Shown: positions 17,155 to 33,206, counted from the stretch's first letter. The stretch: DNA of 64,000 bases from Lysobacterales bacterium (GCA_031364125.1 JANLVT010000045.1:5082-69081), one strand, 5' to 3'. Notes: a model not told the origin generated them from the sequence alone. Numbers and translations: made by a program.

Positions 17155-17167
17155 GACGGAGCCCGAT

Positions 17168-17578: not shown

Positions 17579-17588
17579 GACGGATGCC

Positions 17589-18506: not shown

Positions 18507-18513
18507 AGGAGCG

Positions 18514-20373
18514 ATGCCGATGTTCGAATTGTTCAAGGCCGAACTGCTGCGTTTCCGCCCGTGGGCGCTGGCATTGGCGGGCGTGCATTTCATCGCGCTG
18601 GCCTTCCTGACCCGCATGGTCGATCTGGCGCAGCAGCCGCTGGTGGTGCACTGGTCGTTCGCCAGTACGTATGCAGCGCTCGGGCTGTTGCTCGGGCTGT
18701 ATCAGATGGGCACGTATCGCAAGCCCAGCGCGTGGCTGAACATGCTGCATAGGCCGCTGTCGTCGCCGCGAATCGCGACGTCGCTGATCCTTGCCGCAGT
18801 GGCGCTGCTGGCGGTGGCGGTGGCGCTGCCGATCGCGCTGATCGCACTGTGGCAGGGCGCGATGACGCCGCGCGTGGTCGATCTGCGTCATTGGCTGTTG
18901 GCGCTTGCGGCGCTGCAGATCGCCGCTGCGGGCTATCTGGTCGGCGCGTACGGCATGCTCGGCGAGCGTCGCTACTCCTTCTCCGGCGTGGTGTTCCTTC
19001 TGCTGTTGATCACCGCCGCCGCCACCGGCTTCGGCGCGCTCGCAGTGCAAGCCTTGGTCGTGCTGTGGTTGATCGTGATGGTGCTGGCGACGTTCAAGCC
19101 CGACCTCGATGCGCCGCCGCGCAGTGCGACGGGCATGATCGCGGTGGCGCTGCCGCTGCAGATGGCGATGTATTCGATGATGCTGCTGGCGTATTCGGGC
19201 GTCGAGATGCTGTGGATCGCGCAGGGCTCGCATCCCAACAACATGCCGACGCCGCCGCGCGGCGGACACAACGAAGCGGAGAAGGCCGACGATCGCACGC
19301 GTATGCGCATGGCGCTGGAGGGCAGCGCCCATCCGGATGCGCCGTTGCTGCGCGAACAGATCGCGCTGTCGGAACCCACCGGCATCGCCTCGCAGCTCAG
19401 GCGGGTGCCGCAGCGTTCCGAACTGGCGAACGTCGCGCCGATGGAATTCGACGACGACGCGCGCGGCGTGCGCTGGGTCTTCAGTCACGACGACATGCGC
19501 CTGCACGGTTATCGCCTGAACGATCGCACGCCGGCGGGCATGCTGGGCGTCGGCGCCGACAACGCCGCATTTCCCGTGCCTGCGCTGCCCGTCGGCGCGA
19601 TGCCGGGCTCCGCAAAAGGCGATGCGCTGTTGATCGCGGGCAACACCGCGTATCACTACGACAGCGAATCCGGACAGGTGCTGCCGCGGATCCGTCTGCC
19701 CGACGATGAGGTGCTGGTCGGCGCGAGACCGGTCGGCGAAACCCTGGGCGTGATCAGCGACCGCGCGCTGTACTTTTTCGACGGCCGCGAAACGGTCGAA
19801 CACCAGCGGGTGATGACGCCGCGACTGCGGGTGCCGATGCCCGGCGCCTATCACGATATCTACGACCTCGACATGATCGAGCTGGTGGATGGTTATCTGA
19901 TCGTCTTCAGCAACAGCTACAACGCACATACCGCGGAAGGCGCCGTGCCGTATCAATACGTGCTGCGGGTGCGCGACGGCGGCGCGATCGAGACCATCGC
20001 GAAGCGGCGGCTCGGCTACGACTACCCCGCCGTCTATCGCTACCGGTCGTTCTGGACCTCGCCCGCGCTGTATGCGCTGTGCGATCACGCGCAGCATCTG
20101 TTCGCGCCGCCCCTGCCGCTGGAGACCAGCGTCGCCGCGCCGACCCCGCGCAGCATGTGGCTGCTGGCCGGGGCGCTGTCGCTGCTGGCGCTGATCGGCG
20201 CGCTGTGGCGGACACGGCGGCTGGCGATGCCGACGCCTGTGCGTGCTGTGTGGATCGCGATTTGCGGCCTGATCGGCCTGCCGGCGCTCGCGGCGCTGTG
20301 GCTGCTGTATCGGCCGCAGGAGATCGTGGCGTCCGATCCGTTGGACGTGCAGTACGCGAACGCCACGGCTTGA
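18514..20373 (+). CDS. membrane protein of the GntR-ABC operon (putative permease component, family not recognised)
   Basis: About 619 aa. AAGGA precedes ATG 18514, and the gap to the ATPase stop is 7 nt. The N-terminal ~250 aa carries multiple hydrophobic helices, followed by a soluble middle region and two terminal TM helices. Confidence 0.6.
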   Translation: MPMFELFKAELLRFRPWALALAGVHFIALAFLTRMVDLAQQPLVVHWSFASTYAALGLLLGLYQMGTYRKPSAWLNMLHRPLSSPRIATSLILAAVALLAVAVALPIALIALWQGAMTPRVVDLRHWLLALAALQIAAAGYLVGAYGMLGERRYSFSGVVFLLLLITAAATGFGALAVQALVVLWLIVMVLATFKPDLDAPPRSATGMIAVALPLQMAMYSMMLLAYSGVEMLWIAQGSHPNNMPTPPRGGHNEAEKADDRTRMRMALEGSAHPDAPLLREQIALSEPTGIASQLRRVPQRSELANVAPMEFDDDARGVRWVFSHDDMRLHGYRLNDRTPAGMLGVGADNAAFPVPALPVGAMPGSAKGDALLIAGNTAYHYDSESGQVLPRIRLPDDEVLVGARPVGETLGVISDRALYFFDGRETVEHQRVMTPRLRVPMPGAYHDIYDLDMIELVDGYLIVFSNSYNAHTAEGAVPYQYVLRVRDGGAIETIAKRRLGYDYPAVYRYRSFWTSPALYALCDHAQHLFAPPLPLETSVAAPTPRSMWLLAGALSLLALIGALWRTRRLAMPTPVRAVWIAICGLIGLPALAALWLLYRPQEIVASDPLDVQYANATA

Positions 20374-20677: not shown

Positions 20678-22834
20678 ATGTCGAAGATTGCGAATGCTTT
20701 CGCGATTCGGGCCGCGCTGACCCTTGCGTTGCTGATGGGCGCGGTCGCGCTGCTGTCGCCGCTCTCGTCGATCCGCGCCGCCGAACTGCAGGATGCGCTG
20801 CGCAGCGAACAACAGCGACCGCGCGCGCCGACGCTGCCGCGCAGCGCATTCCTGCAGCGCGCGTCGATCGTTTCGGTGGTGCTGTCGCCGGACGGACGGC
20901 AGGTCGCCTGGTTGAACGAGGCCGGCCGCAATCGCGAAGTCTGGCTGCAGACGACCGGCGGCGGTGAGGCGCGACGGCTGATGGCGCACACGCCCGCGCA
21001 TGAGTTGGCGTGGACGCGCGACAGCCGCTGGCTGCTGCTGGAAACGGCGCAGCATCTGTTCGCGCTGGCCGTCGACGGCCAGTCCGGTTCTGGCATCGTG
21101 ACCACGCTCGGCGGGCGCAGCGGGCGCGCGATGATGCGCGTCGACGACGCCATGCCCGCAGCGGCGATCGTGATCGAACAGGAAGGCCTCACGCCGCAGG
21201 GACAGCCCGCGCGATGGCGGCTGCTGCGCGTGGACATGCGCGGCAAACGCACGCGATTGCACGAAGACAGCCGGCGCATCACGGGTTATGCGCTGGATCC
21301 GCAGGGACGACTCGCATTCGTGCAGCGGGTGGAAGGACTGGAATTGACGATCCAGCGCGTCGAAGCAGGCGGCCGTCTGCGCGAAGTCGCACGCTGCGCG
21401 CGGATGCGGCGCTGCATGCCGCTGGTGACCAGCGCAGACGGACGCGATCTGATCCTGCGCGGCAATTTCGGCGAAGCGACCGGCCCGGAGCTGCATCGAC
21501 TGATGCGACTCGATGCCGACGGCCGCCTCCACGTACTGCATGCCGATCCGCGCGGCGAAGCGGATCTGGATACGCTGATTTTCGATCCGCTGACCCGGCA
21601 GCCGCTGATCGCGGCCTATCGCAGTACCGTCGCCGTCAGTCACGGCCTCGATGCCGACACGCAGCGGCATCTGCGACGTCTTGGAGCGTTGCTGCCGCAG
21701 CGGGACCAGCAGTTGGACCAGCGCATCGAGATCGGCCGCGGACAGGAGGCGCGCTGGCTGGTCGAAACCAGCGCCGGACACCAGCAGGGCAGCCGTTGGC
21801 ATCTGTACGATCCCGCCGTCGGCAGCGTGTCGGTGCTGTTCGACGACCGCCCGCGCGATGCGCGCAGTCAGCGTCCGGCCAAGCGCATCGACGACGCCAC
21901 GCTGGCGCGCAAGATTCCGGTCGACTGGCGCGCATCCGACGGCATGCGCCTGCATGGTTTCGTGTATCTGCCGCCCGGGCGCGCGGCGGCCACCCTGCCG
22001 CTGGTGGTGCTGCCACATGGCGGACCGTGGAATCACTGGCGGCCCGAGTACAACGGCATCAGCCAATTCCTGGTCAATCGCGGTTATGCGGTGTTCGAGC
22101 CGAACTTCCGCAGCTCGACCGGCCATGGCCGCGCCTATACATTCGCCGCGAACGGCGACTTCGGCAACGGCCGCGTGCAGCAGGACATCGTCGACGGCAC
22201 GCGCTACCTGCTCGCATCGGGCATCGGCGATGCGCAGCGCGTCGGCATCGCCGGTGCGTCGTTCGGCGGCTATTCGACGCTGCTCGGCGTCACCTTCCAG
22301 CCGGACCTGTTCAAGGTCGGCGTCGCCTTCGTGCCGCCGCCGGATTTCGCCTGGACGCTGCGCTGGCTGCTGCGCAACCCGGAATCGCTGGAATTCGGCA
22401 ACGTGGTGCCGATGACCGACTGGCTGCGGATGCTGTCGCTGGATGTCGACGACAGGGCGCACATGGCGACACTGCACGCGCAGTCGCCGCTCGCGAACAC
22501 CGCACGCATGCATCGGCCGCTGCTGCTGGTGGCCGGCGGCGAAGACCGCCGCGTCGGCATCGCCGGGGTGATCGAATACGCGGCAAGGCTCAAGCTCGCG
22601 AACAAGGACGTGAGCCTGCTGGTGGATACCGATGCCGGGCACGCCAATCGCGAGCCGATCGCCCGCGAAGCCAATCTCTATCTGCTAGAAGCGATGCTGC
22701 ATCGCCATCTCGACGGCACTGCGCCGGTCCCGCCGGATGCGGCATTGCGCGATTATCTCCGCGAAAATCTTCGCTTGTGCCATCGCGACCTGCAGGCGGT
22801 TTGCGCGAAGCGCGGGAGCGCGGGCACACGTTGA
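20678..22834 (+). CDS. S9 family serine peptidase (prolyl oligopeptidase/dipeptidyl aminopeptidase-like), secreted
   Basis: 718 aa. Signal peptide (..ALLMGAVALLSPLSSIRAAE), N-terminal beta-propeller-like region, nucleophile elbow GASFGGYS, C-terminal D...GH (TDAGHAN). Confidence 0.85.
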   Translation: MSKIANAFAIRAALTLALLMGAVALLSPLSSIRAAELQDALRSEQQRPRAPTLPRSAFLQRASIVSVVLSPDGRQVAWLNEAGRNREVWLQTTGGGEARRLMAHTPAHELAWTRDSRWLLLETAQHLFALAVDGQSGSGIVTTLGGRSGRAMMRVDDAMPAAAIVIEQEGLTPQGQPARWRLLRVDMRGKRTRLHEDSRRITGYALDPQGRLAFVQRVEGLELTIQRVEAGGRLREVARCARMRRCMPLVTSADGRDLILRGNFGEATGPELHRLMRLDADGRLHVLHADPRGEADLDTLIFDPLTRQPLIAAYRSTVAVSHGLDADTQRHLRRLGALLPQRDQQLDQRIEIGRGQEARWLVETSAGHQQGSRWHLYDPAVGSVSVLFDDRPRDARSQRPAKRIDDATLARKIPVDWRASDGMRLHGFVYLPPGRAAATLPLVVLPHGGPWNHWRPEYNGISQFLVNRGYAVFEPNFRSSTGHGRAYTFAANGDFGNGRVQQDIVDGTRYLLASGIGDAQRVGIAGASFGGYSTLLGVTFQPDLFKVGVAFVPPPDFAWTLRWLLRNPESLEFGNVVPMTDWLRMLSLDVDDRAHMATLHAQSPLANTARMHRPLLLVAGGEDRRVGIAGVIEYAARLKLANKDVSLLVDTDAGHANREPIAREANLYLLEAMLHRHLDGTAPVPPDAALRDYLRENLRLCHRDLQAVCAKRGSAGTR

Positions 22835-22946: not shown

Positions 22947-23945
22947 TCACGAAGGGGGATCGCGGAGCGGTCGCGCGGTGCGCATCCCCAGTGCGAGCCT
23001 GAGTTCATCCAACGGAAAATCCGACTGCTTCGCAGGGTCGCCGAAATGCGCGGCGATCGATTCGCTCCAGAGGATCTCCGTCTGGGGCGCGAATCCCAGA
23101 CGGTTGTTCATCATGTGGATCTGGGAATAGAACATGCCGGCGATCGCTCTCGACCGTTCGACCTCGTCGGTGGGCGAACGCGCCTGTATGGGAGATATCA
23201 GCAGGCCATCCTCCGCCATGGCCATGAACGTTCGGTAGGCCTGGCCGACCGCGACGCCCCAGTGCCCGACGAGCGAATCCGCAGGTCGGCCGGACGCCAG
23301 GAAAGCGCGGTGCGCGTCGAAGCGCGAGGCCATGCCGTCCGCGACCAGTGCCTTGCCGACGAAGGCGTCGTCGCCGCCGCCGGTCGGCCCATTGCTCCAG
23401 CCGATGGCATACGTGGAGAAAAAAGCGCTGGGCGACCCGTTGCAGCAGTCCGTCGCGGCCGCGGTCATCAGCATCAGGTCGATCGCCAGGCGGGCGCGCT
23501 TGCGATGATCCGCGACTGTCAGATCGATGGCGCGAACCGCGATCGCGGTGGACAGCCGGAACAGGCGTTCGTTCTCCTTCAGGGCATGCGGCCCCCCGTA
23601 CCGGCGCGTTTCGGGGACGTATTCGACGTCCGCGATCGCGCCGGGCGTGAACAGAGTGCCCTGGCTGTCGGGGTAGCCGATCGACCGGACCCACTCCGAG
23701 ACAGGTACGTTCTCGGCAAGAGCGGCGCATTCGGCCGCCGCTTGCGCGCGGAATGCGTCGTACACAGGATCGATCCGCTGGCCGACGCGGATGCGGAGAT
23801 GCGCGCCGCCCTCGGCGTAACGAATGAAAAACCAGTCGTCGTGAGAGTCGGTCAGGTCGCGCAGGATGCGGGCAGTCGCGATGGCGAGCAGATCCGCATG
23901 CTCCGGTTGGGCGTAGAAAAGATGGAACGAGCGCCATGAATTCAT
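22947..23945 (-). CDS. thiopeptide-type bacteriocin biosynthesis protein (SpaB_C / LanB C-terminal-like fold); glutamate-elimination enzyme or pyridine synthase
   Basis: 332 aa. The N-terminus WRSFHLFYAQPEHADLL....WFFIRYAEGGAHLRIRVG...YVPETRRYGGPHAL..ERLF..S is the hallmark pattern of the SpaB_C/thiopep_ocin domain. It is the last gene of the RiPP operon. Confidence 0.8.
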   Translation of the reverse strand: MNSWRSFHLFYAQPEHADLLAIATARILRDLTDSHDDWFFIRYAEGGAHLRIRVGQRIDPVYDAFRAQAAAECAALAENVPVSEWVRSIGYPDSQGTLFTPGAIADVEYVPETRRYGGPHALKENERLFRLSTAIAVRAIDLTVADHRKRARLAIDLMLMTAAATDCCNGSPSAFFSTYAIGWSNGPTGGGDDAFVGKALVADGMASRFDAHRAFLASGRPADSLVGHWGVAVGQAYRTFMAMAEDGLLISPIQARSPTDEVERSRAIAGMFYSQIHMMNNRLGFAPQTEILWSESIAAHFGDPAKQSDFPLDELRLALGMRTARPLRDPPS

Positions 23946-23952
23946 ATCTTTC

Positions 23953-25464
23953 TCATGCGATCGGAAACGCTGGATTGGGGTGCGGGTCGAAGCCGATCAG
24001 TATCTGCACGAGCGCACGCATCTCCAGCGGCATCAGCAGGTTTTTCAGATCGTCCGGATAGGCCATGAACGGGCGGGCCGTCATGCCGTTGCGTGCCGCA
24101 GCGAGACACATACATTGCGACAGAACGCCGGCGCGTAGATATGCATCGATGAGCGCATGCGCCGCCGCGCCATCGCCCGCCAGATGTCCGTCGGCGCCGA
24201 TCGTGATCAGGATGCCGGTGTTGTAGCGGCACATCTCGCGCGCCACGCGCAAGGTGTCTTCGCCGCACGGCATCGGCGTCATGCGCGAGCGCACGTGATC
24301 GACGTCGAAAATCCGGACAGGCGCTTCCTGCGTTGCTTTCCACACGAGCGTAACGCACAGCGGCAGGGTCCCGACTGCATGCGATCCGCTGCCGCGAACC
24401 AGAATCCGTATGTCGGCCAGCAGCGCGTCCAGAACGGCCGCGTCCATGGCCCTCGTCCAACGGGCGATGCCGTTGCCGATGCCGGATGAACGCCTGTCGG
24501 AAAGATCAAGGACGGAAAACAATTCCGGTGGCGTGTCGTTTGCATCACCGATGGCGCCGTACTCGGTAGCGACGCCCGATGCGGTGCGGATCGGCGCCGT
24601 GGCCGCCAACCGCACGAAATCGCGCATCGACGGATGCGCATCGGCATCGGCATGGTGCGGCCGGGGGCGGATCGTCTCCAGCGGGCGGGCGCTCAGATCC
24701 GATAGCGCAGAGCCTGCGCGGTCGCCCGACAATCGGCAGCTGACCATCGGCGATTCGCTCCAATGCCCGATGCCGACCAGCGTGCGCAAAGCGTCGTCGT
24801 CGTGGCGCGCGCAAGGATGCAGGCGCCAGCCCAGGGCGCGAGCGACGAAGTGGATCTGCGCCTGCAGCATTCCGGCTTCCAGCGCGACCAGCCAGAGAGC
24901 GAGGGCGCCATAGATGCCGACGCATTTGCCGAGATTGCCGACGATGACCAGCGACAGGGCGTCCTCGTCTTCAGACGCCGCATCCTCGGGGACTTCGCGA
25001 CTCTCGAGCAGACACAGATCGCGGGGGCTGCAATAGAGCGCGCGCGGGCCATTGCGCGTCCGTGCGATCAGATAAAGATCCACGGGAAACAGGGCCCCGG
25101 GCGTCGGGACTGCCCGATGCTGTCCGCAACCGTTGAGCGGCTCCCAGCGGATCGGCCATGCGGAATGCTGGAGCAGGACCGATAACTTCTCCGATGCGGT
25201 CAGCCCTGCCGTTGCGGCGCCGTCTTCGGTCGCAGTGGTGTCCGGCGGTTCCGGCAGGACATAGGCCGCGGCCTGATGCTGCTCGAACGTCACGCCCTTT
25301 TCGAACCGCGGATGCAGCCGCGTGCGGTCCATCTCGGGCGCCAGCGGAAATATCGATGATGTGCCGCCCTGCCGCAGCCCCTCCCACCGCGCGCCGCGCA
25401 GTTCGCGCCGACGGTCCGAAGTGGCGACGATGTAATCCTGAACCGGCGTGTTGCTGGCCATCAT
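23953..25464 (-). CDS. SagB-type (tandem nitroreductase-fold) FMN-dependent azoline dehydrogenase
   Basis: 503 aa and about twice nitroreductase length. First half ..AVPTPGALFPVDLYLIAR....LYCSPRDL.., with a second pseudo-repeat. It sits directly downstream of the YcaO gene (4-nt gap), as in TOMM/thiopeptide clusters. Confidence 0.7.
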   Translation of the reverse strand: MMASNTPVQDYIVATSDRRRELRGARWEGLRQGGTSSIFPLAPEMDRTRLHPRFEKGVTFEQHQAAAYVLPEPPDTTATEDGAATAGLTASEKLSVLLQHSAWPIRWEPLNGCGQHRAVPTPGALFPVDLYLIARTRNGPRALYCSPRDLCLLESREVPEDAASEDEDALSLVIVGNLGKCVGIYGALALWLVALEAGMLQAQIHFVARALGWRLHPCARHDDDALRTLVGIGHWSESPMVSCRLSGDRAGSALSDLSARPLETIRPRPHHADADAHPSMRDFVRLAATAPIRTASGVATEYGAIGDANDTPPELFSVLDLSDRRSSGIGNGIARWTRAMDAAVLDALLADIRILVRGSGSHAVGTLPLCVTLVWKATQEAPVRIFDVDHVRSRMTPMPCGEDTLRVAREMCRYNTGILITIGADGHLAGDGAAAHALIDAYLRAGVLSQCMCLAAARNGMTARPFMAYPDDLKNLLMPLEMRALVQILIGFDPHPNPAFPIA

Positions 25465-25468: not shown

Positions 25469-27343
25469 TCATGGGAAGACGTGGGGATCGTCGCGAAAGC
25501 GGGACACGCCGTCGCGTCCCGTCATCCGCATCAGGCGATCGGTCGAAATGCGCCGGTAGCGGTGACCGAAGGTCATCGGAAGCAGGCCCGGCGCAAGCAC
25601 CTTCGCGCAGTGCAACCCATCGGATCGGAAAGGTTCGAAGCCCTGATCGATGGTGATCACATCGGCTGCAACGCTCAGCGTCGCTTCAACCAGATCCTTC
25701 ATCAATGCGAACGTGGGGATTTCCTGCGCGTCGGCGCAGGTCGGGATCGCCGACAAGGCAAGCTTCGGACCCGAGGCGATTGGGAAGCTGCGCTCGCGCA
25801 ACGCCCTCAATGGCCAGCACTGCAACGAGTGGTCGGCCATGGATCCCACCGCGGCGGGATTGTCGAGCAGGATCTCCGCCTTGCGCATTTTATCTTCCCG
25901 ATCGCGATCATCGTGGCGATGCACGAAGGTCACCGCTTCTGCGAACGCGGCGCGCATGGCCTTGTCGCGATCGAGATGCGCGCCGGCTGCATAAACCGCA
26001 GCGGGGCCGAAGCGCAGGTCGGGATCCGTGATCCTCACCGCGAAGGCCGGGGGCGGCAGTCCGCAACGGATATCGTAGACGTCGACTTCGAGCCCCTCGG
26101 CGCAGAGGCGGGCCAGCATCGCCTGCACGAACGGATCTGCGCAGTCTCGCGCGTCGACCGCGTGGAGCTCACGCCCGGAATACCAGGATGCAAGAAAAGC
26201 GTCGCGCTCGATGATCTCAAGCAGGCCGTGGAGCGTGGCTTCCGCCATGGACGAACCGATCGCGCAGCCATTGGAGATTTCGTAGACGAATCGGCCCCCG
26301 GTCACATGCGTCGTGGATCGGCCGAGGCCGTAATAGGCCAGTTGCAACGGAACCAGTACTTCTGCGCCGCGCCGGAACGAGTATCCCCAGACCCAGTCGT
26401 ACACCGTGTCAGGACTGTATTCGGCGATCGCGAAACCGGGTTCGCCGCGCTGCGCCGGCGCATGCAGGATGAACGACTGCGGATCGATCGCCCGATCCCG
26501 CAGTGCGTTGTAGCTGCCCTTCACCGTGGTCCGCTGGCCGCGGGGCCGCATCCCCGCGAAACGCTCGATGGCTTCCAGCAACGCGATGGTGGCGTCATCG
26601 CCGGCCTTGCCCGACCGGCCGAAGCCTTCTTCGACCGTGGCGAGGTCTTTGAACGGATAGAGCGTCGCCGCATGCATGCCCAGCATCGGTGTCGATGTCC
26701 GGGGCACGATTTGCCGGACCACGCCGGTGCGACCATCCTTCGAATGGGGAAGGATCGCGGACGCGATGTCCCGCAACGATGAGCCGCGCAGACCGGAAGT
26801 CATTCGATCATTGCGGAACATGTCCGCAGCGGTCGTGCGCGTGTTGTCCGGCAGCGGCTCGCACCGCGGGCAGTCCGGATGGCGGATGAAAACGTGTTCG
26901 GACACCGATCTGCGGTCGATGCTGACGAGGCGCGCGCTCCCGGTGGAGCCATCCGTTTCGGGCGGTGGGGCGACGGCCGTCGCTGCGATCATCGCGGCCA
27001 GCCATGCGTCGCCCGCTGGGGAAATGGCGGGAAACTCGTCCGGCTGACAGGCCGTATCCCGGGTAAATCCGACCGTCCATCCATGCAGCCGCCACAGCTG
27101 GAAGCAATGAAAGCAGGGGTCGGAGGCGGCCGCTGCGCTGATCCAGCAGTGTCCTTGCGTCCACAGCACGAGGATCAACGCATGGCGATCAGCGACAGCC
27201 TCGTCGACCGTGCGCGACTGTTCCGCCAAGCGGTAAAGCGGATGAGCGACGATGCCGATGTGGGCGGGTACGCCCGCCGCGATCAGCGCGTCTTCGACCT
27301 GCATCGCCAAGGGGGGCGCGAAACCCAGGATGCGATGCTTCAT
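25469..27343 (-). CDS. YcaO-type cyclodehydratase (azoline-forming, thiopeptide/TOMM type)
   Basis: About 624 aa. YcaO core motifs GFGRSGKAGDDATIALLEAIERFAG, NGCAIGSSMAEATLHGLLEIIERDAF and AGAHLDRDKAMRAAFAEA. The C-terminus is Pro-containing (..DDPHVFP). ATG 27343 overlaps the upstream stop (ATGA). The track ORF (to 27679) is over-extended. Confidence 0.85.
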   Translation of the reverse strand: MKHRILGFAPPLAMQVEDALIAAGVPAHIGIVAHPLYRLAEQSRTVDEAVADRHALILVLWTQGHCWISAAAASDPCFHCFQLWRLHGWTVGFTRDTACQPDEFPAISPAGDAWLAAMIAATAVAPPPETDGSTGSARLVSIDRRSVSEHVFIRHPDCPRCEPLPDNTRTTAADMFRNDRMTSGLRGSSLRDIASAILPHSKDGRTGVVRQIVPRTSTPMLGMHAATLYPFKDLATVEEGFGRSGKAGDDATIALLEAIERFAGMRPRGQRTTVKGSYNALRDRAIDPQSFILHAPAQRGEPGFAIAEYSPDTVYDWVWGYSFRRGAEVLVPLQLAYYGLGRSTTHVTGGRFVYEISNGCAIGSSMAEATLHGLLEIIERDAFLASWYSGRELHAVDARDCADPFVQAMLARLCAEGLEVDVYDIRCGLPPPAFAVRITDPDLRFGPAAVYAAGAHLDRDKAMRAAFAEAVTFVHRHDDRDREDKMRKAEILLDNPAAVGSMADHSLQCWPLRALRERSFPIASGPKLALSAIPTCADAQEIPTFALMKDLVEATLSVAADVITIDQGFEPFRSDGLHCAKVLAPGLLPMTFGHRYRRISTDRLMRMTGRDGVSRFRDDPHVFP

Positions 27344-29166
27344 GCCTCCATCGTCCGCGCATGCCCGACATGCATGCCCACGGGAAGACAGGGATCGGTC
27401 GCCGCCACGTACTGCAGCGCGATGGGCGCTTCGATCGCAGACGCCGATGGTGGATCGTCGCCATCGCCGGCCTCCCGCGGCAAGGCGACACGCCGCAGTT
27501 CCGAGAGCGGCCAGATCATTTGGCGATCCGTCAGCTGTCCGAGTTGAAAGGCGCTCAGGGTTTCGCCCAAGGCCTCGAAAATGACGGACTGGAGATCGGG
27601 GGCGACGGCCACCGCGGTCCAATCCCCGATGTTCGCCCAAGCGATACAGGCGCCAGACTCCGCCGACCCCGATGTCCAAAGGATGGGCAGGCTGCCCGAA
27701 TACAGGCGGATCAGTCGGGCGAGCACCTGCACATCGGGACTGTCGGCGGTCGTGATCGCGCGCGCCTGCGGAGGACGATCGAGGAGAAAATCCGGCAGCG
27801 TCGCGCGTGCGTACGACATGGCCCGGGCGCGCGACGTTTCCTGCGATGCGGATGCGATCAAAAGCGAGACGCCCGGCGCAGCGACGTGTCCCGTGTTGCC
27901 CGCCACGAGTGTTGCGAAGGCCTGCGCCATCAAGCGCTGTTCGGCACCGGCAGGATCCAGGCCCCAGTCGTAAAGCGTTTGCTGGCGCGCCTCGCCTTCA
28001 GGAGAGGCATATGACAGCGCGACCGCCCTGTGCGCGAGAGGATATTCGGGGCCCGGCACCGTCGCATCGCTGAACAGGCCGGCGGCGGGGTCGAAGAAGC
28101 GGGTCAACAATGGATCCGTGGGGGCGACCACAGGTTCATCCGGGACATCGTTGACCAGCGATCGGCCACTGGCCAGGAAAACCCCGCTGTCGTGGCTGCT
28201 GACCGAACCGTCATTGCGCACCACGCGGAATTGCGTCTCGCGCCTCGCGCTTTCCCCGGGATCGTCGGACCATGCCGCGATGCGCTCCTGCATGGCCTCG
28301 AAGGCAAGCAGGGAAGCGAGTACGCGCACTGCCGCTTTGGTGAACGGTTGGGCTTGGCCGCCCACCCGCGTGGTCAAGGCTTGCCATGGCGCCAAGCCGT
28401 TCCGGCAATCCGGACCGACAATGCCGATGTCGCCGAAAACAGCGCCGATCATCGTGACCTCGTGCCTGCTCGCCAGCGCCTCGATCCTGCTCAGGACGTC
28501 TTCGTCCGGCGGTTCGGCGCCGAGATACAGCAGCAGCGATCTCGGCTCGCGCTGTTGGCGTATCGCGGCCGCAAAGCTCAGCACCTCGCATGCCGATGGC
28601 AATCCAAGCGGCGGGTATGTTCCGTTGCTGTGCGGCGGGCCTTGGAGATTCCCCGGATCGATCGTCTGCGCATCGCGGAGCGTTGAATCGACCGTCTCCG
28701 AATCGATGATCGCGACATGGCCGGCCGCCGCCGATACGATCGCGCGGGCCAAGGCAGGAACGAGTTCCCGCGAACCCATCAGGGTGATTCGCGCCTGCGA
28801 CCATTCCTCGAAGCACTCGCGCCACCGTGAGGTCGCGTCTCTGAAGAAATGCAGGGTCGAGGCATGGAGATGCTCTTCCGGAATGGCTTCGGGCGGACCG
28901 CTGGTCAACATCCGTTGGCGGACGAGATGATCCAGAAGCTGGTCCAGAAGCGGCATCACTTTTTCCGGGAGCGCTGAACGGATCTCGTCGAGCGGGCGCG
29001 ACCCATCGAGGCTGTCGAGGATGCGCGACACGATCGGGAAGAGTTTCTCGCCGCGGACGAAGAAGCTGCGCTCGCCGAGCTCGACGTAAGTGCCGGCTTC
29101 GACCTGCGCGTGGAGCACGCCCGACTTGAGCATGGGGGCATCGATGAGTGACGAGGTTAGCGACAT
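27340..29166 (-). CDS. ocin-ThiF-like thiazole-bacteriocin maturation protein with N-terminal RRE (PqqD-like) leader-binding domain
   Basis: 608 aa. The N-terminus GERSFFVRGEKLFPIVSRILDSLDGSRPLDEIRSALPEKVMPLLDQLLDHLVRQRML fits the RiPP recognition element pattern (..L.G...l..ll..LdG.r.l.ei). Size and position (immediately upstream of YcaO, ATGA-coupled) match the TclI-like partner protein. Confidence 0.65.
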   Translation of the reverse strand: MSLTSSLIDAPMLKSGVLHAQVEAGTYVELGERSFFVRGEKLFPIVSRILDSLDGSRPLDEIRSALPEKVMPLLDQLLDHLVRQRMLTSGPPEAIPEEHLHASTLHFFRDATSRWRECFEEWSQARITLMGSRELVPALARAIVSAAAGHVAIIDSETVDSTLRDAQTIDPGNLQGPPHSNGTYPPLGLPSACEVLSFAAAIRQQREPRSLLLYLGAEPPDEDVLSRIEALASRHEVTMIGAVFGDIGIVGPDCRNGLAPWQALTTRVGGQAQPFTKAAVRVLASLLAFEAMQERIAAWSDDPGESARRETQFRVVRNDGSVSSHDSGVFLASGRSLVNDVPDEPVVAPTDPLLTRFFDPAAGLFSDATVPGPEYPLAHRAVALSYASPEGEARQQTLYDWGLDPAGAEQRLMAQAFATLVAGNTGHVAAPGVSLLIASASQETSRARAMSYARATLPDFLLDRPPQARAITTADSPDVQVLARLIRLYSGSLPILWTSGSAESGACIAWANIGDWTAVAVAPDLQSVIFEALGETLSAFQLGQLTDRQMIWPLSELRRVALPREAGDGDDPPSASAIEAPIALQYVAATDPCLPVGMHVGHARTMEA

Positions 29167-30221
29167 AACGCTGCGCCGTGTGAGTACGATCTTGAGAGGA
29201 TGCCCGGAAAATGCGCTTCGAGCATGTCGGTGACGAGATGACAGACGAGGAACCGTTGACTCGCCCCGAAACCGATCGCCGGAAACATGTCGTACAGAGA
29301 GTTCATCAACATGCGATAGGCGAACTGTGTCGGATGATCCATGGCTGCGATCGTCTGGGTGTCGATGCTGTTCATCGTGCCCATCCCCGCCTTGAAGGGG
29401 GCCATGACCTGTGCGTTGACGTTCCTGACGAAATCAGGCTCGGCCGTGTCCAGGAACCGGAGCAGCTGTTCGTATGCGATCTGCAGACGGCAGATCCATG
29501 CGTAACTGTGTGCGGATGCCGCCATTGCGCCGTCGAGCATGCCCTCTTGCCTCACCCGCGCGAGGAGCGCCGGCTGCAATACCGCCAGCCGCGCGGGAAA
29601 TGTCTTGGTGATGCTCGATAAAGCCTTGCTGCTGGCATGCGCCTGTCCCTGCAGCGACAGCGGCCAGAAATTCAATCCATCCCGCCATGCGAGCCGCTCG
29701 AGACAGACGATCCGGAAGGCCAGTTCGACCAGCGCCTCCGATGGCGATCGCAGCCGCAGCTCGACCAGCTCGAAGACGTCTTCGAGGGTCGCCGCCTTGA
29801 AAGCATCCCTCAACGGCGCGAGCGCCATTCGACCTAACGGGTGAGGAACGGCGAAACGGCCGCGTTCGACGCGCCTGTCCGGCCTGATCGAACCCGGCTC
29901 GTAGGGCAAGTCCTCGAGTTCGGCCAGCTTTTTCGCACGCGCGCGGAAAGCAGCCTCGTCCAAGTGCGGTCGCGGCGGCTCATCGTCCAGCCAGCGCTGC
30001 ACGACATCGGCGACGATCGTCCATCGATCCGGGCCATCGTCCGAAGGAATATCCAGCCCGATCAGGAGATGCGGGCCGTCGAGCCAGTGCGGCCGAAGCG
30101 TCGCGCCGATGCCGCCCTCGCGCCATCCGATCACGTGCAGCGCTGGCCGGATCCCATCGAGGATGAGCTGACCGTGGTCCGTCGCGTGATGATTGACGCG
30201 CAGGCCGTACACCATGGTCAT
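29157..30221 (-). CDS. divergent SpaB_C-like protein (candidate second thiopeptide elimination / [4+2] cyclase enzyme)
   Basis: About 354 aa. Start MTMVYGLRV overlaps the LanB stop (ATGA at 30218-30221). ..LILDGIRPALHVIGWREGG..ATLRPHWLDGPHLLIGLD.. parallels the ..FFIRY.dGGPHLRLR.. core of the SpaB_C fold, but it is much more divergent than the 22947-23945 protein. The track ORF (to 30695) is over-extended. Confidence 0.5.
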   Translation of the reverse strand: MTMVYGLRVNHHATDHGQLILDGIRPALHVIGWREGGIGATLRPHWLDGPHLLIGLDIPSDDGPDRWTIVADVVQRWLDDEPPRPHLDEAAFRARAKKLAELEDLPYEPGSIRPDRRVERGRFAVPHPLGRMALAPLRDAFKAATLEDVFELVELRLRSPSEALVELAFRIVCLERLAWRDGLNFWPLSLQGQAHASSKALSSITKTFPARLAVLQPALLARVRQEGMLDGAMAASAHSYAWICRLQIAYEQLLRFLDTAEPDFVRNVNAQVMAPFKAGMGTMNSIDTQTIAAMDHPTQFAYRMLMNSLYDMFPAIGFGASQRFLVCHLVTDMLEAHFPGILSRSYSHGAALCR

Positions 30222-32878
30222 GCGAGTTCCTTGAGCGTCAGCTCGATCCCGAACTCGCCCACCACCGCATGCCCGCCCTGCTCGAAGCAGGTCTGGGTGG
30301 GGTCGGGCAGCGCTTCGGCGAACACCACGTCCAGATCGCCGACGGCGAGGTTCTTCTGGAAGATGCGAACGGCCATGGGGCACGCCGTGTCGAGCGGCAT
30401 GGGTTTCGCATCCTTGCCGGGCAGGGATCTCCAATCCGGCGAATGCATGCCCTCGCCGCGATGCAGGGCGGGAATCGCCGTCCGTTTGCTGAACATCCAG
30501 CGCGGCAGATCGTTGCTGTCGGCCCACGCTGCGAACTGCTCGAAAAAAACGAATTCGTCCAGGGCGGGATCGGGCAGGTCGGCTTTTCTGATTGCCAGCG
30601 AACGGCGGACGAGAACGATGTCGCCCAGGCGCACGCGGGGAATCCTGATGGCGCCGCGGGCGTCCGGCGCGAGAAAATGCGCGAATTGATCGCATAGATC
30701 ATCGACGCGGTCGGAACTGAAGCACAGCGTGCGCACGACCTGATGGCTGCGGGGCATCAACAGCGGCGTCAGGATTCCGGGATAGAAGACGTTCACCACC
30801 TGCCCGTGCTCATCTTCGAAGACCAGATCATCGCGATCGGCGCGATGCCTCAGGCGCAGGGCGTCGAGCGATTTGGCCGTGGCTCTCGATGACACGAAAG
30901 GCGGAATGTCGACGACCTCATCCGACAGAATCGGATGCAGGTTGGCGTTGAAACCGAAGATGCCGCCCAGTTCCACGAATGCGCCGTCTTCCGAAATGTC
31001 CCGGAGATAATTGCTGACCTTGTCCTTGGCGATCTTGTCGTCCGGGATGAATCTCGAAAACATGCAGGATGCGCCAGGGTAGATGTGGTTGATCGCCAAC
31101 CATGGGCCCTCCGGCGTGGCGACAGGCTGCATGAAGAGCATCTTCGATACATCCGGCCGCGGACCCTCTGTTTTCACATGCCGCGAGTACCTGTCCAAGT
31201 GCCCGCCCTCCAGTACGATCTCGCGACTCGTCTTCGCCAGTCCGGCCAGGCGCATGAACATTTTTCTGCGCAGGCGCGCAAGCGCGCGATCCGTGTCTTC
31301 GGATCCGCGCCGCAGACGTTCGGAGTCGCCCGCATGCTGTCCGCTGTCTCCGAAGTGAGCGTCGAATGTATCGGCGCAGGTCTCGATGAAGTCGCGTACG
31401 TCCCGGCAGACGCCACCGCTGCCGTAGCGCTCCCGGAATCTTCGGCAGATCAGTCTTCGGAATCGGCTCAGCGGCGCATTGCCGGTCAGGATCGGAATGA
31501 TCCGCAGCAACGCGACCAGTTCCGGTTCGTATCGGTCCAGGAACTTGCGCGGCAGGCCGAAAGCAGGCGCGGGCAGCGAACAATCTTCGAAAAGGATCGG
31601 CCGGAAGCGTTCGACTGCGATGGAGATGCCGGCGATCGACAGGATCGTCTGGAAATGCCCTTCGACTGTCGCGGTGAACTGGTGATCGAACCGATCGGGC
31701 GACGCGATCGCGGCCATGAACTGCTGCAGCGCCGAAGACATCGCATCGCGCAGAGGTTGCTTCAGGCATGCACAGGCCGTGCTTGCCCAATCGACCGAGT
31801 CCGATCCGGACGCCAGGTCCGGCCGGATAAGCCCGTGCTGCCAAGCGGTGGAAAGCAATTCGTCGGCGCGCGCCGCATCGCCGCCGACCGCCGGTAGAAG
31901 CGCTTCCCGCAGGCGGTACAACGCCAGCGCGCGTCGGGGGCCGGGCGTGTCGAAGATTTTCGACAGCAGTTTTACCAGTGCCGCCCGGCTGCTGTTTTTG
32001 GCGACCCGCGTGCCGCGTGTGCGGGATTCGGGCGGCTCATCGTTCTTGATCCTGCTCCAGGTGTAGTGTCCGTCCTCGGCACGCACACTGGCGTTGAGGA
32101 TCACGAGCGTGCGGTCATCGATGCGTTCGATACTGTTCAACAGTTCGAGAAAAACGTAATCCAGCGCGGCGAAGCGCGGCTGCAGTCTGCGTTCAACCAT
32201 GGTCGTCAAGGCGAAGGCGTTGCCGTCGCCAAACGCTTCCGGCGCCGTATCGTTCCAGCAGCCAAGGGCGACCAGGCCGAATGAGGAGAGCGGGCTGGTC
32301 TTCTGGCCCGACCTCAGAATGTATCGCCCCAAGCTGGTGCAAAGCTGGGCGCGCTGCTTGTTGGGAAACTGTCGCCCCGACAGAAGCTGGAGAACCCTCG
32401 CATGCACTGGCGGATTCGTCAGCGCCAGCGCATGGATCAGGGCGTGCTCCGAAAACAGACGCAGGGCAATATCGTAGGCCTGCTCGACTTCGCCCGCGTA
32501 AGTCGACGCACAGTTCGCCTCCAGACCGGAGATCGCCCGCAGCGAATCGATCAGCGTGCCGACGGCCTCATCGCATTCTCGCGGCAAATGCGGACGGACC
32601 CGCTCCGCCAACGCCTGGGCTGGCAGTCGTTCGTTGAACAGATCGCGCTTGAGTTGGATCAGCACACGCGCGATCGCGGGGTCACGGCCGTAGAGCGTCG
32701 AAACCTCGGCGGCCAAGGCATCGCACAGGATCGCCTTGCTTGTCGAAAATGCCTCGCGCAGCGAGCGCAAGGCCCGGATTTGACCAATGGTACGGCCGGA
32801 CGCGAACGATGTTTCTGCGATCGGAACGCCACCCAGGCGAGCGACCACGAAAGGGTGGGGAACCAGGATGTGGTTCAA
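30218..32878 (-). CDS. lanthipeptide/thiopeptide dehydratase, LanB N-terminal (glutamylation) type
   Basis: 886 aa. The N-terminus ..PFVVARLGGVPI... and ..ILRSGQKTSPLSSFGLVALGCW.. fit Lant_dehydr_N patterns (f.lvRtP.lp; ..TPf.lFa.v..G). No fused C-terminal elimination domain, i.e. the split thiopeptide-type architecture. The apparent start is TTG at 32878, with no in-frame ATG upstream. Confidence 0.85.
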   Translation of the reverse strand: MNHILVPHPFVVARLGGVPIAETSFASGRTIGQIRALRSLREAFSTSKAILCDALAAEVSTLYGRDPAIARVLIQLKRDLFNERLPAQALAERVRPHLPRECDEAVGTLIDSLRAISGLEANCASTYAGEVEQAYDIALRLFSEHALIHALALTNPPVHARVLQLLSGRQFPNKQRAQLCTSLGRYILRSGQKTSPLSSFGLVALGCWNDTAPEAFGDGNAFALTTMVERRLQPRFAALDYVFLELLNSIERIDDRTLVILNASVRAEDGHYTWSRIKNDEPPESRTRGTRVAKNSSRAALVKLLSKIFDTPGPRRALALYRLREALLPAVGGDAARADELLSTAWQHGLIRPDLASGSDSVDWASTACACLKQPLRDAMSSALQQFMAAIASPDRFDHQFTATVEGHFQTILSIAGISIAVERFRPILFEDCSLPAPAFGLPRKFLDRYEPELVALLRIIPILTGNAPLSRFRRLICRRFRERYGSGGVCRDVRDFIETCADTFDAHFGDSGQHAGDSERLRRGSEDTDRALARLRRKMFMRLAGLAKTSREIVLEGGHLDRYSRHVKTEGPRPDVSKMLFMQPVATPEGPWLAINHIYPGASCMFSRFIPDDKIAKDKVSNYLRDISEDGAFVELGGIFGFNANLHPILSDEVVDIPPFVSSRATAKSLDALRLRHRADRDDLVFEDEHGQVVNVFYPGILTPLLMPRSHQVVRTLCFSSDRVDDLCDQFAHFLAPDARGAIRIPRVRLGDIVLVRRSLAIRKADLPDPALDEFVFFEQFAAWADSNDLPRWMFSKRTAIPALHRGEGMHSPDWRSLPGKDAKPMPLDTACPMAVRIFQKNLAVGDLDVVFAEALPDPTQTCFEQGGHAVVGEFGIELTLKELA

Positions 32879-32900
32879 TGTTCATCTCATGGTGCGCGCG

Positions 32901-32928
32901 AAAAACCACCCGTGGTAGGCACGAGTGG
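32901..32928 (-). terminator. intrinsic terminator/attenuator hairpin between precursor gene and lanB-like gene
   Basis: The minus-strand RNA reads CCACUCGUG-ccuac-CACGGGUGG (9-bp stem including one G-U pair) followed by UUUUU. A second, weaker hairpin AUCCGC-N9-GCGGAU plus U6 lies at 32954-32980. Confidence 0.45.
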
Positions 32929-32991
32929 TCTTCGACTGTCGTGGCAAGCAGGCTAAAAAATCCGCCAAGACAGCGCGGATGCCGTCTATGC

Positions 32992-33171
32992 TCAACCGTC
33001 GATCAGGGGCTCTTGAACGCAGCAGCTGCAGCTGCACGAGGCGCAGACGGCGCTGATTCTCGAGGCGCCCATTTCCGGGAACGCGACGGAATCGGAGGAG
33101 TCGAGTACTTCGATATCGAACATGTCGATTTCGGTCAGATCGATGTCGCTGAAATCCAAAGCGTTGTTCAT
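32992..33171 (-). CDS. thiopeptide-type RiPP precursor peptide
   Basis: 59 aa: MNNALDFSDIDLTEIDMFDIEVLDSSDSVAFPEMGA / SRISAVCASCSCSCCVQEPLIDG. The leader is acidic and ends in MGA. The core is Ser/Cys-rich (5 Ser, 5 Cys in 15 residues). A strong RBS AAAAGGAGAGG sits upstream of ATG 33171. The track ORF (to 33249) is over-extended. Confidence 0.8.
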   Translation of the reverse strand: MNNALDFSDIDLTEIDMFDIEVLDSSDSVAFPEMGASRISAVCASCSCSCCVQEPLIDG

Positions 33172-33206
33172 TAACCTCTCCTTTTCCTTGAACGGGTGTT
33201 TATCGG

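What the first reader, a model, noticed from the sequence alone, without database searches (positions are those of the whole stretch)
32992..33171. Precursor peptide: thiocillin-like leader junction but an unusual core with Arg in the ring region and a long acidic C-terminal tail
The leader MNNALDFSDIDLTEIDMFDIEVLDSSDSVAFPEMGA is acidic and ends in ..EMGA directly before Ser. As I recall, the Bacillus cereus thiocillin precursor has the same type of junction (..EIMGA/SCTTCVCTCSCCTT). The predicted core is S1-R-I-S4-A-V-C7-A-S9-C10-S11-C12-S13-C14-C15-V-Q-E-P-L-I-D-G23. The C10-S11-C12-S13 arrangement resembles the ..CCSCS.. segment of thiomuracin/GE2270-type cores. In those cores Ser1 and Ser11 form the pyridine, giving a 29-membered ring. 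Ser1/Ser13 would instead give a 35-membered ring. Three features are atypical: only two Cys inside the putative macrocycle, a cationic Arg2, and an 8-residue acidic tail (VQEPLIDG) after the last Cys, with no tail-processing enzyme in the operon.
Basis: partly seen in the sequence, partly recalled or inferred. Interest (0 to 1): 0.8.

Follow-up and report, generated by a model that had tools for sequence, protein, structure and literature searches.

The report
Thiopeptide precursor gene, gammaproteobacterial cluster
This is a real 59-codon gene for the precursor of a thiopeptide (a ribosomal peptide cyclised around a pyridine ring), followed by the six enzymes needed to mature it; its 'odd' features are normal for its own little-studied family from uncultured Gram-negative bacteria, and no product of that family appears in the literature I could search.

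Summary
It passes the curated cut-offs of Pfam Thiopep_pre and NCBIfam thiazolyl_B and has a strong ribosome-binding site. It heads a translationally coupled operon: LanB-type glutamylase, TbtD-like pyridine synthase, RRE-containing partner protein, YcaO, azoline dehydrogenase and glutamate eliminase. Homologous small ORFs sit in the same position in every related cluster I recovered, all from metagenomes or genomes assembled from them; the two with organism titles are Gammaproteobacteria. They are under purifying selection. The invariant parts are the leader, Ser1-Arg2 and S-C-S-C-S-C-C. The ring middle varies, and the tail varies most.

The GA|S junction is generic, and the nearest characterised leader is lactazole's LazA, not thiocillin's. 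A non-azole residue 2, few Cys in the ring and a long acidic tail are usual in this wider precursor family. No protease is conserved with the cluster. Ring size is unresolved: I favour Ser1/Ser11 (29-membered) over Ser1/Ser13 because the pyridine synthase is closest to TbtD.

Sister loci that lack the ring segment also lack the pyridine synthase gene. Verdict: a new, uncharacterised member of a known kind, of moderate interest.

The parts
32992..33171 (-). Precursor peptide gene (A), 59 codons plus TGA stop
   Evidence: Translation. Pfam Thiopep_pre and NCBIfam thiazolyl_B both above cut-off. Conserved homologues.
33064..33171 (-). Leader region, residues 1-36 (MNNALDFSDIDLTEIDMFDIEVLDSSDSVAFPEMGA), net charge -10
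   Evidence: Invariant DFSDxDL..F..VLD..FP..G(A/G) motif. Homology to the LazA leader.
32995..33063 (-). Core plus tail, residues 37-59. S1-R2 and S9-C10-S11-C12-S13-C14-C15 are invariant. I3-A8 is the variable ring segment. V16-G23 is the hypervariable acidic tail.
   Evidence: Alignments and variant lists.
33175..33183 (-). Shine-Dalgarno sequence AAGGAGAGG, 3 nt before the ATG
   Evidence: Read from the sequence.
32955..32987 (-). First terminator-like hairpin after the precursor stop, followed by a U6 run
   Evidence: Function as a leaky terminator is inferred, not shown.
32897..32933 (-). Second terminator-like hairpin (13-bp stem plus U5) just before the LanB-type gene
   Evidence: Comparable hairpins with U-runs follow the precursors in L003 and L004.
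30218..32878 (-). B: LanB-type dehydratase N-terminal (glutamylation) protein, 886 aa, TTG start
   Evidence: Pfam Lant_dehydr_N 68.9 bits, cut-off 28. Orthologue present in all related loci long enough to show the cluster.
29157..30221 (-). C: pyridine synthase ([4+2] cyclase) homologue, 354 aa, start overlapping B's stop (ATGA)
   Evidence: Full-length match to TbtD, PDB 5wa3: E 8e-12 for the single sequence and E 5e-22 for the orthologue profile, which hits only TbtD and PbtD in the PDB. NCBIfam TbtD_PbtD_pyrid 1e-25, below the equivalog cut-off.
27340..29166 (-). D: 608-aa partner protein with an N-terminal RRE (leader-binding) domain
   Evidence: Orthologue profile matches the PbtF RRE domain, PDB 8t19, E 1e-5. 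No Pfam or NCBIfam family.
25469..27343 (-). E: YcaO cyclodehydratase with an N-terminal TOMM leader-binding/E1-like domain, start overlapping D's stop (ATGA)
   Evidence: Pfam YcaO 225 bits. TIGR03604 at 258.7 bits (cut-off 219). TIGR03882 at 38.2 bits (cut-off 36.9).
23953..25464 (-). F: azoline dehydrogenase (SagB-type), 503 aa
   Evidence: TIGR03605 5e-10, below cut-off. 29% identity to the dehydrogenase half of LazF, E 3e-5. Weak profile hits to the BmdC and McbC oxidases.
22947..23945 (-). G: LanB C-terminal-type glutamate-elimination protein, 332 aa
   Evidence: Pfam Lant_dehydr_C 103 bits and TIGR03891 at 76.5 bits, both above cut-off. 33% identity to the eliminase half of LazF, E 5e-18.

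Best explanation
The ORF is the structural gene of a thiopeptide (pyritide-class RiPP). It heads a minimal, self-contained seven-gene cluster in a gammaproteobacterium-like genome.

Proposed mechanism; the steps are inferred from homology and none is shown here:
1. The acidic 36-residue leader docks on the RRE domain of protein D.
2. D and the YcaO protein E cyclodehydrate Cys7, 10, 12, 14 and 15. F oxidises the azolines to thiazoles.
3. B (Glu-tRNA-dependent glutamylation) and G (elimination) convert Ser1, Ser9, Ser11, Ser13 and possibly Ser4 to dehydroalanine.
4. The TbtD-like protein C joins Dha1 to a Dha in the invariant SCSCSCC block in a formal [4+2] reaction. This expels the leader as a carboxamide and forms a pyridine-bridged macrocycle that carries Arg2.

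I favour Ser11 as the partner, at roughly 55-60%. That gives a 29-membered ring with the thiomuracin/GE2270 register C10-S11-C12-S13 and leaves Thz12-Dha13-Thz14-Thz15-VQEPLIDG as the exocyclic tail. Ser13 (35-membered) is second, at about 30%.

No cluster enzyme processes the tail. It is either retained or trimmed by unlinked host peptidases.

Two terminator-like hairpins between the precursor gene and B probably give excess precursor transcript.
For: Gene reality and family membership.

Complete enzyme set with tight coupling.

Same architecture A(n)-B-C-D-E-F-G in L001/L009/L011, L002, L003/L010, L015 and L016.

Natural deletion experiment: loci L004-L007 and L013 lack exactly the variable ring segment (core SRSCSCSCC...) and also lack gene C, while B, D, E, F and G stay intact at 54-63% identity. 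This ties C to the ring segment, as expected for a macrocyclase.

Ser1 is the only conserved N-terminal Ser. Ser4 and Cys7 are absent in P0009 and P0010.

Register argument for Ser11:
- C is much closer to TbtD (48 bits single sequence, 81.9 bits profile) than to PbtD (27 bits) or LazC (23 bits).
- TbtD's substrate, as I recall it (SCNCFCYICCSCSSA), has the same C10-S11-C12-S13.
- In lactazole the essential block Ser10-Ser11(azole)-Ser12(pyridine)-Cys13 (PMC7210931) maps onto S9-C10-S11-C12.

No conserved protease.

LazC-type systems tolerate C-terminal extensions of up to 15 residues (PMC7210931).
Against: No product has been observed, so every chemical step is inferred from homology.

C, F and D score below the curated cut-offs of the nearest NCBIfam models or match none.

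The register cannot be read from the sequence. The end of the block, C12-S13-C14-C15 plus tail, equally fits the thiocillin-type C-S-C-C pattern. Relatives such as P0094 (..TSCSCC) and P0080 (STYIHSCSCSV, where the middle Ser would give only a 20-membered ring) fit a 'last Ser' rule better.

The TbtA and GE2270 core sequences are from memory.

The tail shows a non-random C-terminal Gly and a recurring [DE]-hydrophobic-hydrophobic-x-G pattern across distant subfamilies. My model does not explain this.
Confidence: 0.75

Rival explanations
1. Same pathway, but the pyridine forms between Ser1 and Ser13. This gives a 35-membered ring (berninamycin size) with three thiazoles inside, and a thiocillin-like exocyclic bis-thiazole (Cys14-Cys15) carrying the VQEPLIDG tail.
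For: The invariant end of the block, C12-S13-C14-C15, reproduces the C-S-C-C pattern around the pyridine Ser of thiocillin (from memory). Relatives with only one possible register point to the Ser that precedes the last Cys(s): P0094 ..S-C-S-C-C, P0075 ..S-C-S-C-C, and P0080, where the middle Ser would give a 20-membered ring. CC is invariant in all Arg2-type members.
Against: In P0010 it would require a 38-membered ring, larger than any natural thiopeptide (26 to 35 per PMC7210931). The pyridine synthase is closest to TbtD, which makes a 29-membered ring. L002's distant core SCRTVIYSCSCSVSPT gives a canonical 26-membered ring only with the middle Ser.
Confidence: 0.3
2. The tail is removed by the neighbouring secreted S9 (prolyl-oligopeptidase family) peptidase at 20678..22834 (+), which would then be an unrecognised cluster member cutting after Pro19.
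For: It is convergent with, and 112 nt from, the last biosynthetic gene. It has a signal-peptide-like N-terminus. It shows Peptidase_S9 and weak similarity to the Atxe2 lasso-peptide isopeptidase. An orthologue also abuts the cluster in L004-L007. The window's tail contains Pro.
Against: Its orthologues are 82-83% identical while the cluster proteins are only 54-63% identical. With the other flanks (78-83%) this marks it as conserved chromosomal context. It is absent next to the cluster in L010 (kinase), L011 (sigma factor), L013 (glyoxalase), L014, L015 and L016. Most tails of close relatives have no Pro, for example VQEDIIDG and IQDDIIDG.
Confidence: 0.08
3. In this window the product is a linear azole/dehydroalanine peptide (goadsporin-like) and gene C is not a working macrocyclase.
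For: Sister loci with the same enzymes but without C exist and look functional. C is below the NCBIfam equivalog cut-off.
Against: C is intact and full length. It is conserved at 43-63% identity across seven loci, including the C-terminal AYR..N..Y....G....RF.VCHL block shared with TbtD. It is lost only together with the ring segment of the core.
Confidence: 0.05
4. The small ORF is a chance open frame in GC-rich DNA.
For: Many spurious ORFs overlap real genes in this 66% GC window.
Against: Curated-model hits above cut-off, a ribosome-binding site, conserved position and purifying selection.
Confidence: 0.01

Closest known systems
Lactazole A system (lazA-F, Streptomyces lactacystinaeus)
   Same: The leader is homologous..DLDLSE....D(S/T)VA(F/L)PE(M/N)GA|S, BLASTP E 5e-7. 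It is also a minimal cluster with no tailoring, transport or immunity genes, in the order A-B-C-D-E-F. Residue 2 is non-azole, the macrocycle is Cys-poor, and a peptide tail follows the last azole. G matches the eliminase half and F the dehydrogenase half of LazF.
   Different: The eliminase and dehydrogenase are separate genes here but fused in LazF. The pyridine synthase and the RRE protein show no significant similarity to LazC and LazD (E 0.05 and 0.75). The core motif is S-C-S-C-S-C-C rather than S-S-S-C. Residue 2 is Arg rather than Trp. The host is Gram-negative-like rather than Streptomyces. The ring is probably 29- or 35-membered, not 32.
Thiomuracin / GE2270 systems (tbt, pbt/tpd; 29-membered series-d thiopeptides)
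   Same: The same six-protein core set is present as separate genes: glutamylase, eliminase, pyridine synthase, dehydrogenase, RRE/ocin-ThiF-like protein and YcaO. The pyridine synthase is closest to TbtD (E 5e-22 with the profile). The RRE is closest to PbtF's. The core positions C10-S11-C12-S13 coincide with those of the TbtA and GE2270 cores as I recall them.
   Different: The leader is only marginally similar to TbtA's (E 0.002 against my recalled TbtA sequence). Positions 2, 4, 6 and 9 are not Cys. Arg2 and an 8-residue acidic tail have no counterpart. No EF-Tu or other immunity gene, and no tailoring genes, were found among the predicted genes that I scanned against Pfam. C is below NCBIfam's equivalog cut-off for TbtD/PbtD (90.5 against 325 bits).
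Thiocillin / micrococcin (tcl, Bacillus cereus)
   Same: It has a ..MGA|S junction and a C-S-C-C motif before a short tail.
   Different: There is no significant leader similarity (E 8.4). Its ring is 26-membered, its core is Cys-rich, and thiazole 2 is present.
Goadsporin-type linear azole/dehydroalanine peptides
   Same: This is relevant only to the sister loci L004-L007 and L013. They combine YcaO, dehydrogenase and a split LanB dehydratase with no pyridine synthase and a short Ser/Cys core.
   Different: The window itself keeps the pyridine synthase and the ring segment. I did not test sequence similarity to the goadsporin genes.

Membership tests
Thiopeptide / pyritide RiPPs | Short precursor with an N-terminal leader and a Ser/Cys-rich core beginning with Ser | tested here: met
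   PF19409 at 31.5 bits (cut-off 23.5) and NF033400 at 30.9 bits (cut-off 30). G(A/G)|S is invariant.
Thiopeptide / pyritide RiPPs | Class-defining [4+2] pyridine synthase encoded in the cluster | tested here: met
   Gene C matches TbtD over its full length: E 8e-12 for the single sequence and E 5e-22 for the profile. The only PDB hits are TbtD and PbtD. It is below the NCBIfam equivalog cut-off, so it is a homologue, not a proven isofunctional orthologue. Catalytic residues were not examined.
Thiopeptide / pyritide RiPPs | YcaO cyclodehydratase with an RRE-containing partner | tested here: met
   TIGR03604 and PF02624 are above cut-off. The N-terminus of D matches the PbtF RRE at E 1e-5 with the profile.
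Thiopeptide / pyritide RiPPs | FMN-dependent azoline dehydrogenase | tested here: inconclusive
   TIGR03605 at 5e-10 but below cut-off. 29% identity to the LazF dehydrogenase half, E 3e-5. Weak matches to BmdC and McbC. FMN-binding residues were not checked.
Thiopeptide / pyritide RiPPs | Split LanB dehydratase (glutamylation plus elimination) | tested here: met
   PF04738, PF14028 and TIGR03891 are above cut-off. G matches the LazF N-terminal half at E 5e-18.
Thiopeptide / pyritide RiPPs | Mature product contains a six-membered nitrogen heterocycle within a macrocycle | not testable with these tools
   This needs MS or NMR of the product. Predicted masses are given.
Lactazole-like thiopeptides | LazA-type leader | tested here: met
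   BLASTP E 5e-7 and hhalign probability 96% against the verified LazA sequence.
Lactazole-like thiopeptides | LazC-type pyridine synthase and LazD-type partner | tested here: not met
   C against LazC: E 0.05, 22.7 bits. D against LazD: E 0.75. C is clearly nearer to TbtD.
Lactazole-like thiopeptides | Fused eliminase-dehydrogenase (LazF) | tested here: not met
   F and G are separate genes, 7 nt apart.
Lactazole-like thiopeptides | 32-membered ring (Ser1/Ser12) with the S-S-S-C block | tested here: not met
   The core has S-C-S-C-S-C-C, and Ser sits at positions 9, 11 and 13, not 12. The actual ring size is not testable here.
29-membered thiomuracin/GE2270-type thiopeptides | Pyridine from Ser1/Ser11 flanked by Cys10 and Cys12 | tested here: inconclusive
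   The residues are present at the right positions and the synthase is TbtD-like. The alternative register Ser13 is equally encoded. The comparison cores are from memory.
29-membered thiomuracin/GE2270-type thiopeptides | Thiazole at residue 2 and a Cys-rich ring | tested here: not met
   Residue 2 is Arg, and only Cys7 and Cys10 lie inside a Ser1/Ser11 ring.

The most novel reading that the evidence does not exclude
This family may be a structurally new subclass of thiopeptides made by Gram-negative (gammaproteobacterial) hosts. It would have three distinguishing traits:
- A Cys-poor macrocycle with an obligatory cationic Arg next to the pyridine.
- A retained acidic peptide tail whose recurrent C-terminal [D/E]-hydrophobic-hydrophobic-x-Gly(Gly) ending is a functional 'follower' signal, for export, recognition or self-protection, rather than junk.
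- Natural sister clusters that turn the same scaffold into a linear azole/Dha peptide by losing the pyridine synthase and the ring segment together. In these the leader end changes from GA to GG, which hints at a different leader-removal route.
Probability: 0.25. Interest if true: 0.65.

Novelty: new member of a known kind. Interest (0 to 1): 0.45.

Why it matters
Characterised thiopeptides come almost entirely from Actinomycetota and Bacillota (PMC11622008), and the large lactazole-like half of predicted clusters is essentially unexplored (PMC7210931).

This locus offers three things:
- A compact seven-gene cluster of about 10.3 kb that could be refactored, from a Gram-negative-type genome. 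It may express more readily in proteobacterial hosts.
- A core whose constant parts (Ser1-Arg2 and SCSCSCC) and freely variable parts (six ring residues and the tail) are already mapped by natural variation. That is useful for engineering.
- A natural paired comparison, with and without the pyridine synthase, that links the enzyme to the ring segment.

The charged product (Arg plus an acidic tail) might address the poor solubility noted for thiopeptides (PMC11406533 abstract). None of this overturns current understanding.

Tried and rejected
1. S9 peptidase next door as the tail or leader protease. Rejected as a cluster member. It is more conserved than the cluster (82-83% against 54-63%) and absent beside the cluster in six other host contexts.
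2. GntR, ABC ATPase and 637-aa membrane protein (17003..20373) as an export or immunity module. They are not found next to the cluster in any other locus. Left as unproven.
3. Immunity genes (extra L11 or EF-Tu). None found among the predicted genes that I scanned against Pfam.
4. Rfam scan of the whole window: no hits.
5. Identifying the source organism. The genome-collection scan gave only two related MAGs, both titled 'Gammaproteobacteria bacterium'. The window's PriA and sigma factor are 80% and 86% identical to one of them. I could not get beyond that.
6. Literature. No paper in the held library describes a gammaproteobacterial thiopeptide or the SCSCSCC motif. The key survey (Schwalen 2018), the lactazole discovery paper and the thiomuracin papers are not held. 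The phylum distribution of predicted clusters, the native LazA C-terminus and the TbtA core therefore rest on memory.
7. Deciding ring size from the distance between Ser1 and the SCSCS block across relatives. The distances vary too much. The implied rings run from 20 to 47 atoms depending on the rule, so nothing is discriminated.
8. Finding the precursor or a TbtA peptide in the PDB: nothing.

Full report
**Observation.** The feature is real and lies on the minus strand. Window 33171..32992 reads ATG ... An AAGGAGAGG ribosome-binding site lies 3 nt upstream. The peptide scores above the curated cut-offs of Pfam Thiopep_pre (31.5 bits against 23.5) and NCBIfam thiazolyl_B (30.9 against 30).

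**Surroundings.** Six genes follow on the same strand.

| Gene | Window coordinates | Assignment | Evidence |
|---|---|---|---|
| B | 30218..32878 | Lant_dehydr_N glutamylase | |
| C | 29157..30221 | Pyridine synthase homologue | full-length match to TbtD, PDB 5wa3: E 8e-12 alone, E 5e-22 as a seven-orthologue profile that hits only TbtD and PbtD |
| D | 27340..29166 | Partner protein with N-terminal RRE | profile matches the PbtF RRE, E 1e-5 |
| E | 25469..27343 | YcaO plus TOMM leader-binding domain | both above cut-off |
| F | 23953..25464 | SagB-type dehydrogenase | TIGR03605 5e-10; 29% identity to the LazF dehydrogenase half |
| G | 22947..23945 | Lant_dehydr_C / thiopep_ocin eliminase | above cut-off; 33% identity to the LazF eliminase half, E 5e-18 |

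B/C and D/E overlap by ATGA, and the other junctions are 4-10 nt. The 113-nt gap between the precursor gene and B holds two terminator-like hairpins with U-runs. Comparable hairpins with U-runs follow the precursors in L003 and L004. This fits the common RiPP arrangement of excess precursor transcript, which is an inference. The cluster genes have lower third-position GC (0.76-0.81) than most flanking genes, which are mainly 0.82-0.92.

**Conservation.**
- A search of 5.8 billion proteins found 11 homologous 90%-identity clusters. The window's own cluster holds further variants.
- Scans of genome and metagenome collections, and look-ups by protein, gave 16 loci.
- Wherever the contig is long enough, the small ORF (one to three tandem copies) sits directly upstream of the same enzymes in the same order.
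- Invariant positions are the leader motif DFSDxDL..F..VLD..FP..G(A/G), then Ser1-Arg2, then S-C-S-C-S-C-C.
- The six residues between them vary (ISAVCA, ISNPCA, ISSVCA, HDGLLG, YYGGLLG) or are missing.
- Codon comparisons show strong purifying selection on the leader and core.
The ORF stands.

**Host.** The two related genomes in the species-representative collection are MAGs titled 'Gammaproteobacteria bacterium'.
- One of them (L001, about 97% identical to L009 and L011) shares the chromosomal neighbourhood with the window: PriA at 80%, a sigma factor at 86% and an NYN protein at 59% amino-acid identity. The cluster proteins are only 41-55% identical.
- Loci L004-L007 share flanks at 78-83% against 54-63% for cluster proteins.
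- A more distant locus is followed by a TonB-dependent receptor.
- The cluster therefore appears long resident, and fast evolving, in a group of uncultured Gram-negative bacteria.
- I found no paper on a gammaproteobacterial thiopeptide or on this core motif. The main bioinformatic survey is not in the held library.

A profile of the precursors, searched against 1.84 billion representative proteins, retrieved 43 representatives. All have ..P-E-x-G-A|S, a core ending in an SCSC-type block, and a tail. Some have leaders resembling that of actinobacterial LazA.
- Among 55 unique cores, residue 2 is Cys in only 11.
- The stretch after the last Cys averages 7.5 residues and is net acidic.
- Lactazole is known for an unmodified residue 2, low Cys/Ser/Thr content and a minimal cluster. 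Its enzymes accept tails extended by up to 15 residues (PMC7210931).
- The window's leader is significantly similar to LazA, whose sequence I verified in that paper's supplement. It is not similar to the thiocillin precursor as I recall it.
- These features are therefore family-typical. Only the invariant Arg2 is special to this subfamily.

**Enzyme affinities are mixed.** I translated the Laz genes from the paper's supplement. G and F match the two halves of LazF. C matches LazC at only 22.7 bits, against 48 bits for TbtD. D does not match LazD. The enzyme set, six separate proteins, is that of thiomuracin, while the leader is lactazole-like. I therefore do not file it as 'lactazole-like' in the strict sense, because three defining features were tested and not met.

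**The tail.** It is the most variable part.
- Strains with identical leader and core carry VQEPLIDG, VQEDIIDG, VQDDIIDG or IQDDIIDG.
- One species carries three tandem precursor genes with the same core but tails VEEQR, VQEEPL and VEEF or VEEY.
- Tail lengths after the last Cys range from 1 to 16 residues across the 55 cores (4-10 in the Arg2 subfamily).
- No protease is conserved with the cluster. The gene after G is an S9 peptidase here and in L004-L007, a kinase in L010, a sigma factor in L011, a glyoxalase in L013, GlmS-like in L014, a permease in L015 and a retropepsin-like protein in L016.
- The S9 peptidase is part of the conserved flank, not of the cluster.
- Yet the tail is not random. 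27 of 58 tails end in Gly or Gly-[D/E], against 6.1 ± 2.2 in within-tail shuffles. Among the 50%-identity representatives the count is 15 of 40, against 3.5 ± 1.6 with a maximum of 10 in 5000 shuffles.
- A [D/E]-hydrophobic-hydrophobic-x-G(G) ending recurs in distant subfamilies..PLIDG..DDIIGGG..EDLLGGG..TDIIG..NEILGG. I defined that pattern after seeing the data. I cannot explain it.

**A natural experiment.** Loci L004-L007 and L013 sit at the same chromosomal site as the window's cluster. Their cores are SRSCSCSCCVQQPT or ..VQQTHT, which lack exactly the variable ring segment. They have no gene C. B, D, E, F and G are intact, and their leader ends in GG instead of GA. The joint loss of ring segment and pyridine synthase is the best evidence here that C cyclises through that segment. 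It also suggests those loci make a linear azole/Dha peptide.

**Mechanism and ring size.** The proposed pathway is given under Best explanation, and all of its steps are inferred from homology.
- For the ring I favour Ser1/Ser11 (29-membered). The reasons are TbtD-likeness, the shared C10-S11-C12-S13 register, the mapping onto lactazole's essential S10-S11-S12-C13 block, and ring sizes of 26, 29 and 32 across L002, the window and P0010.
- Ser1/Ser13 (35-membered, thiocillin-type C-S-C-C end) remains a serious alternative. It is supported by relatives with a single possible register.
- Sequence alone cannot decide.

**Verdict.** This is a genuine, conserved and uncharacterised thiopeptide precursor in a complete minimal cluster from a gammaproteobacterium-like genome. 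It is a new member of a known kind, not a new kind. Interest is moderate, for three reasons: the uncommon host group, natural variation that maps the constant and variable parts of the core, the paired loci with and without the macrocyclase, and an unexplained C-terminal Gly motif.

Noticed in passing
L004:7235-16614, L005, L006, L007, L013:1843-11002: Sister clusters at the same chromosomal site have a shortened core (SRSCSCSCCVQQPT / ..VQQTHT) and no pyridine synthase gene, while the other five enzymes are intact. Their leader ends in K-G-G instead of T/M-G-A. They probably make a linear azole/dehydroalanine peptide with a different leader-removal route.
   Followed up: partly
L001:9683-10490 (also L009, L011:1-430); L003:10001-10617: Precursor genes occur in tandem. 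One species has three copies with identical cores but different tails (VEEQR, VQEEPL, VEEF/VEEY). Another has two copies with different ring segments (ISAVCA and HDGLLG).
   Followed up: partly
window 32995-33018 (tail codons) and the tails of P0068, P0086, L014:2530-2721, L015:566-748, L016:511-702: Tails across distant subfamilies end in Gly, Gly-Gly or Gly-Gly-Gly far more often than within-tail shuffles predict (27 of 58 against 6.1 ± 2.2). Many share a [D/E]-hydrophobic-hydrophobic-x-G ending. The function is unknown.
   Followed up: partly
L014:2530-10918: A related cluster (precursor core SCAYVIWSCSCSLTDRQLEDLLGGG) has B, C, D, E and G, but no dehydrogenase gene is called between the YcaO and eliminase genes.
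   Followed up: no
window 44001-46000 (ORF 44132-45304, minus strand): GC drops sharply to 52.8%, against about 66% elsewhere. The region contains a DUF4238 protein gene and is probably a small foreign insertion.
   Followed up: no
window 39755-43078 (+): A 1107-residue protein made almost entirely of ankyrin repeats, preceded by predicted membrane segments. This is unusual for a bacterium, and it is 80% conserved in the L004 relative.
   Followed up: no
window 20678-22834 (+) and 36149-38719 (-): Two S9-family peptidases bracket the cluster region, one prolyl-oligopeptidase-like with a signal peptide and one DPP-IV-like. Both are conserved flank genes (78-83% identical in relatives) rather than cluster genes.
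   Followed up: yes
window 17003-20373 (+): A GntR regulator, an ABC ATPase and a 637-aa multi-pass membrane protein with no family match lie beside the cluster. They could act in export or immunity but are not found next to the cluster in other hosts.
   Followed up: partly
window 22947-32878 compared with the flanks: The biosynthetic genes have lower third-codon-position GC (0.76-0.81) than most neighbouring genes (mainly 0.82-0.92). They also diverge much faster between relatives than the flanks do.
   Followed up: partly
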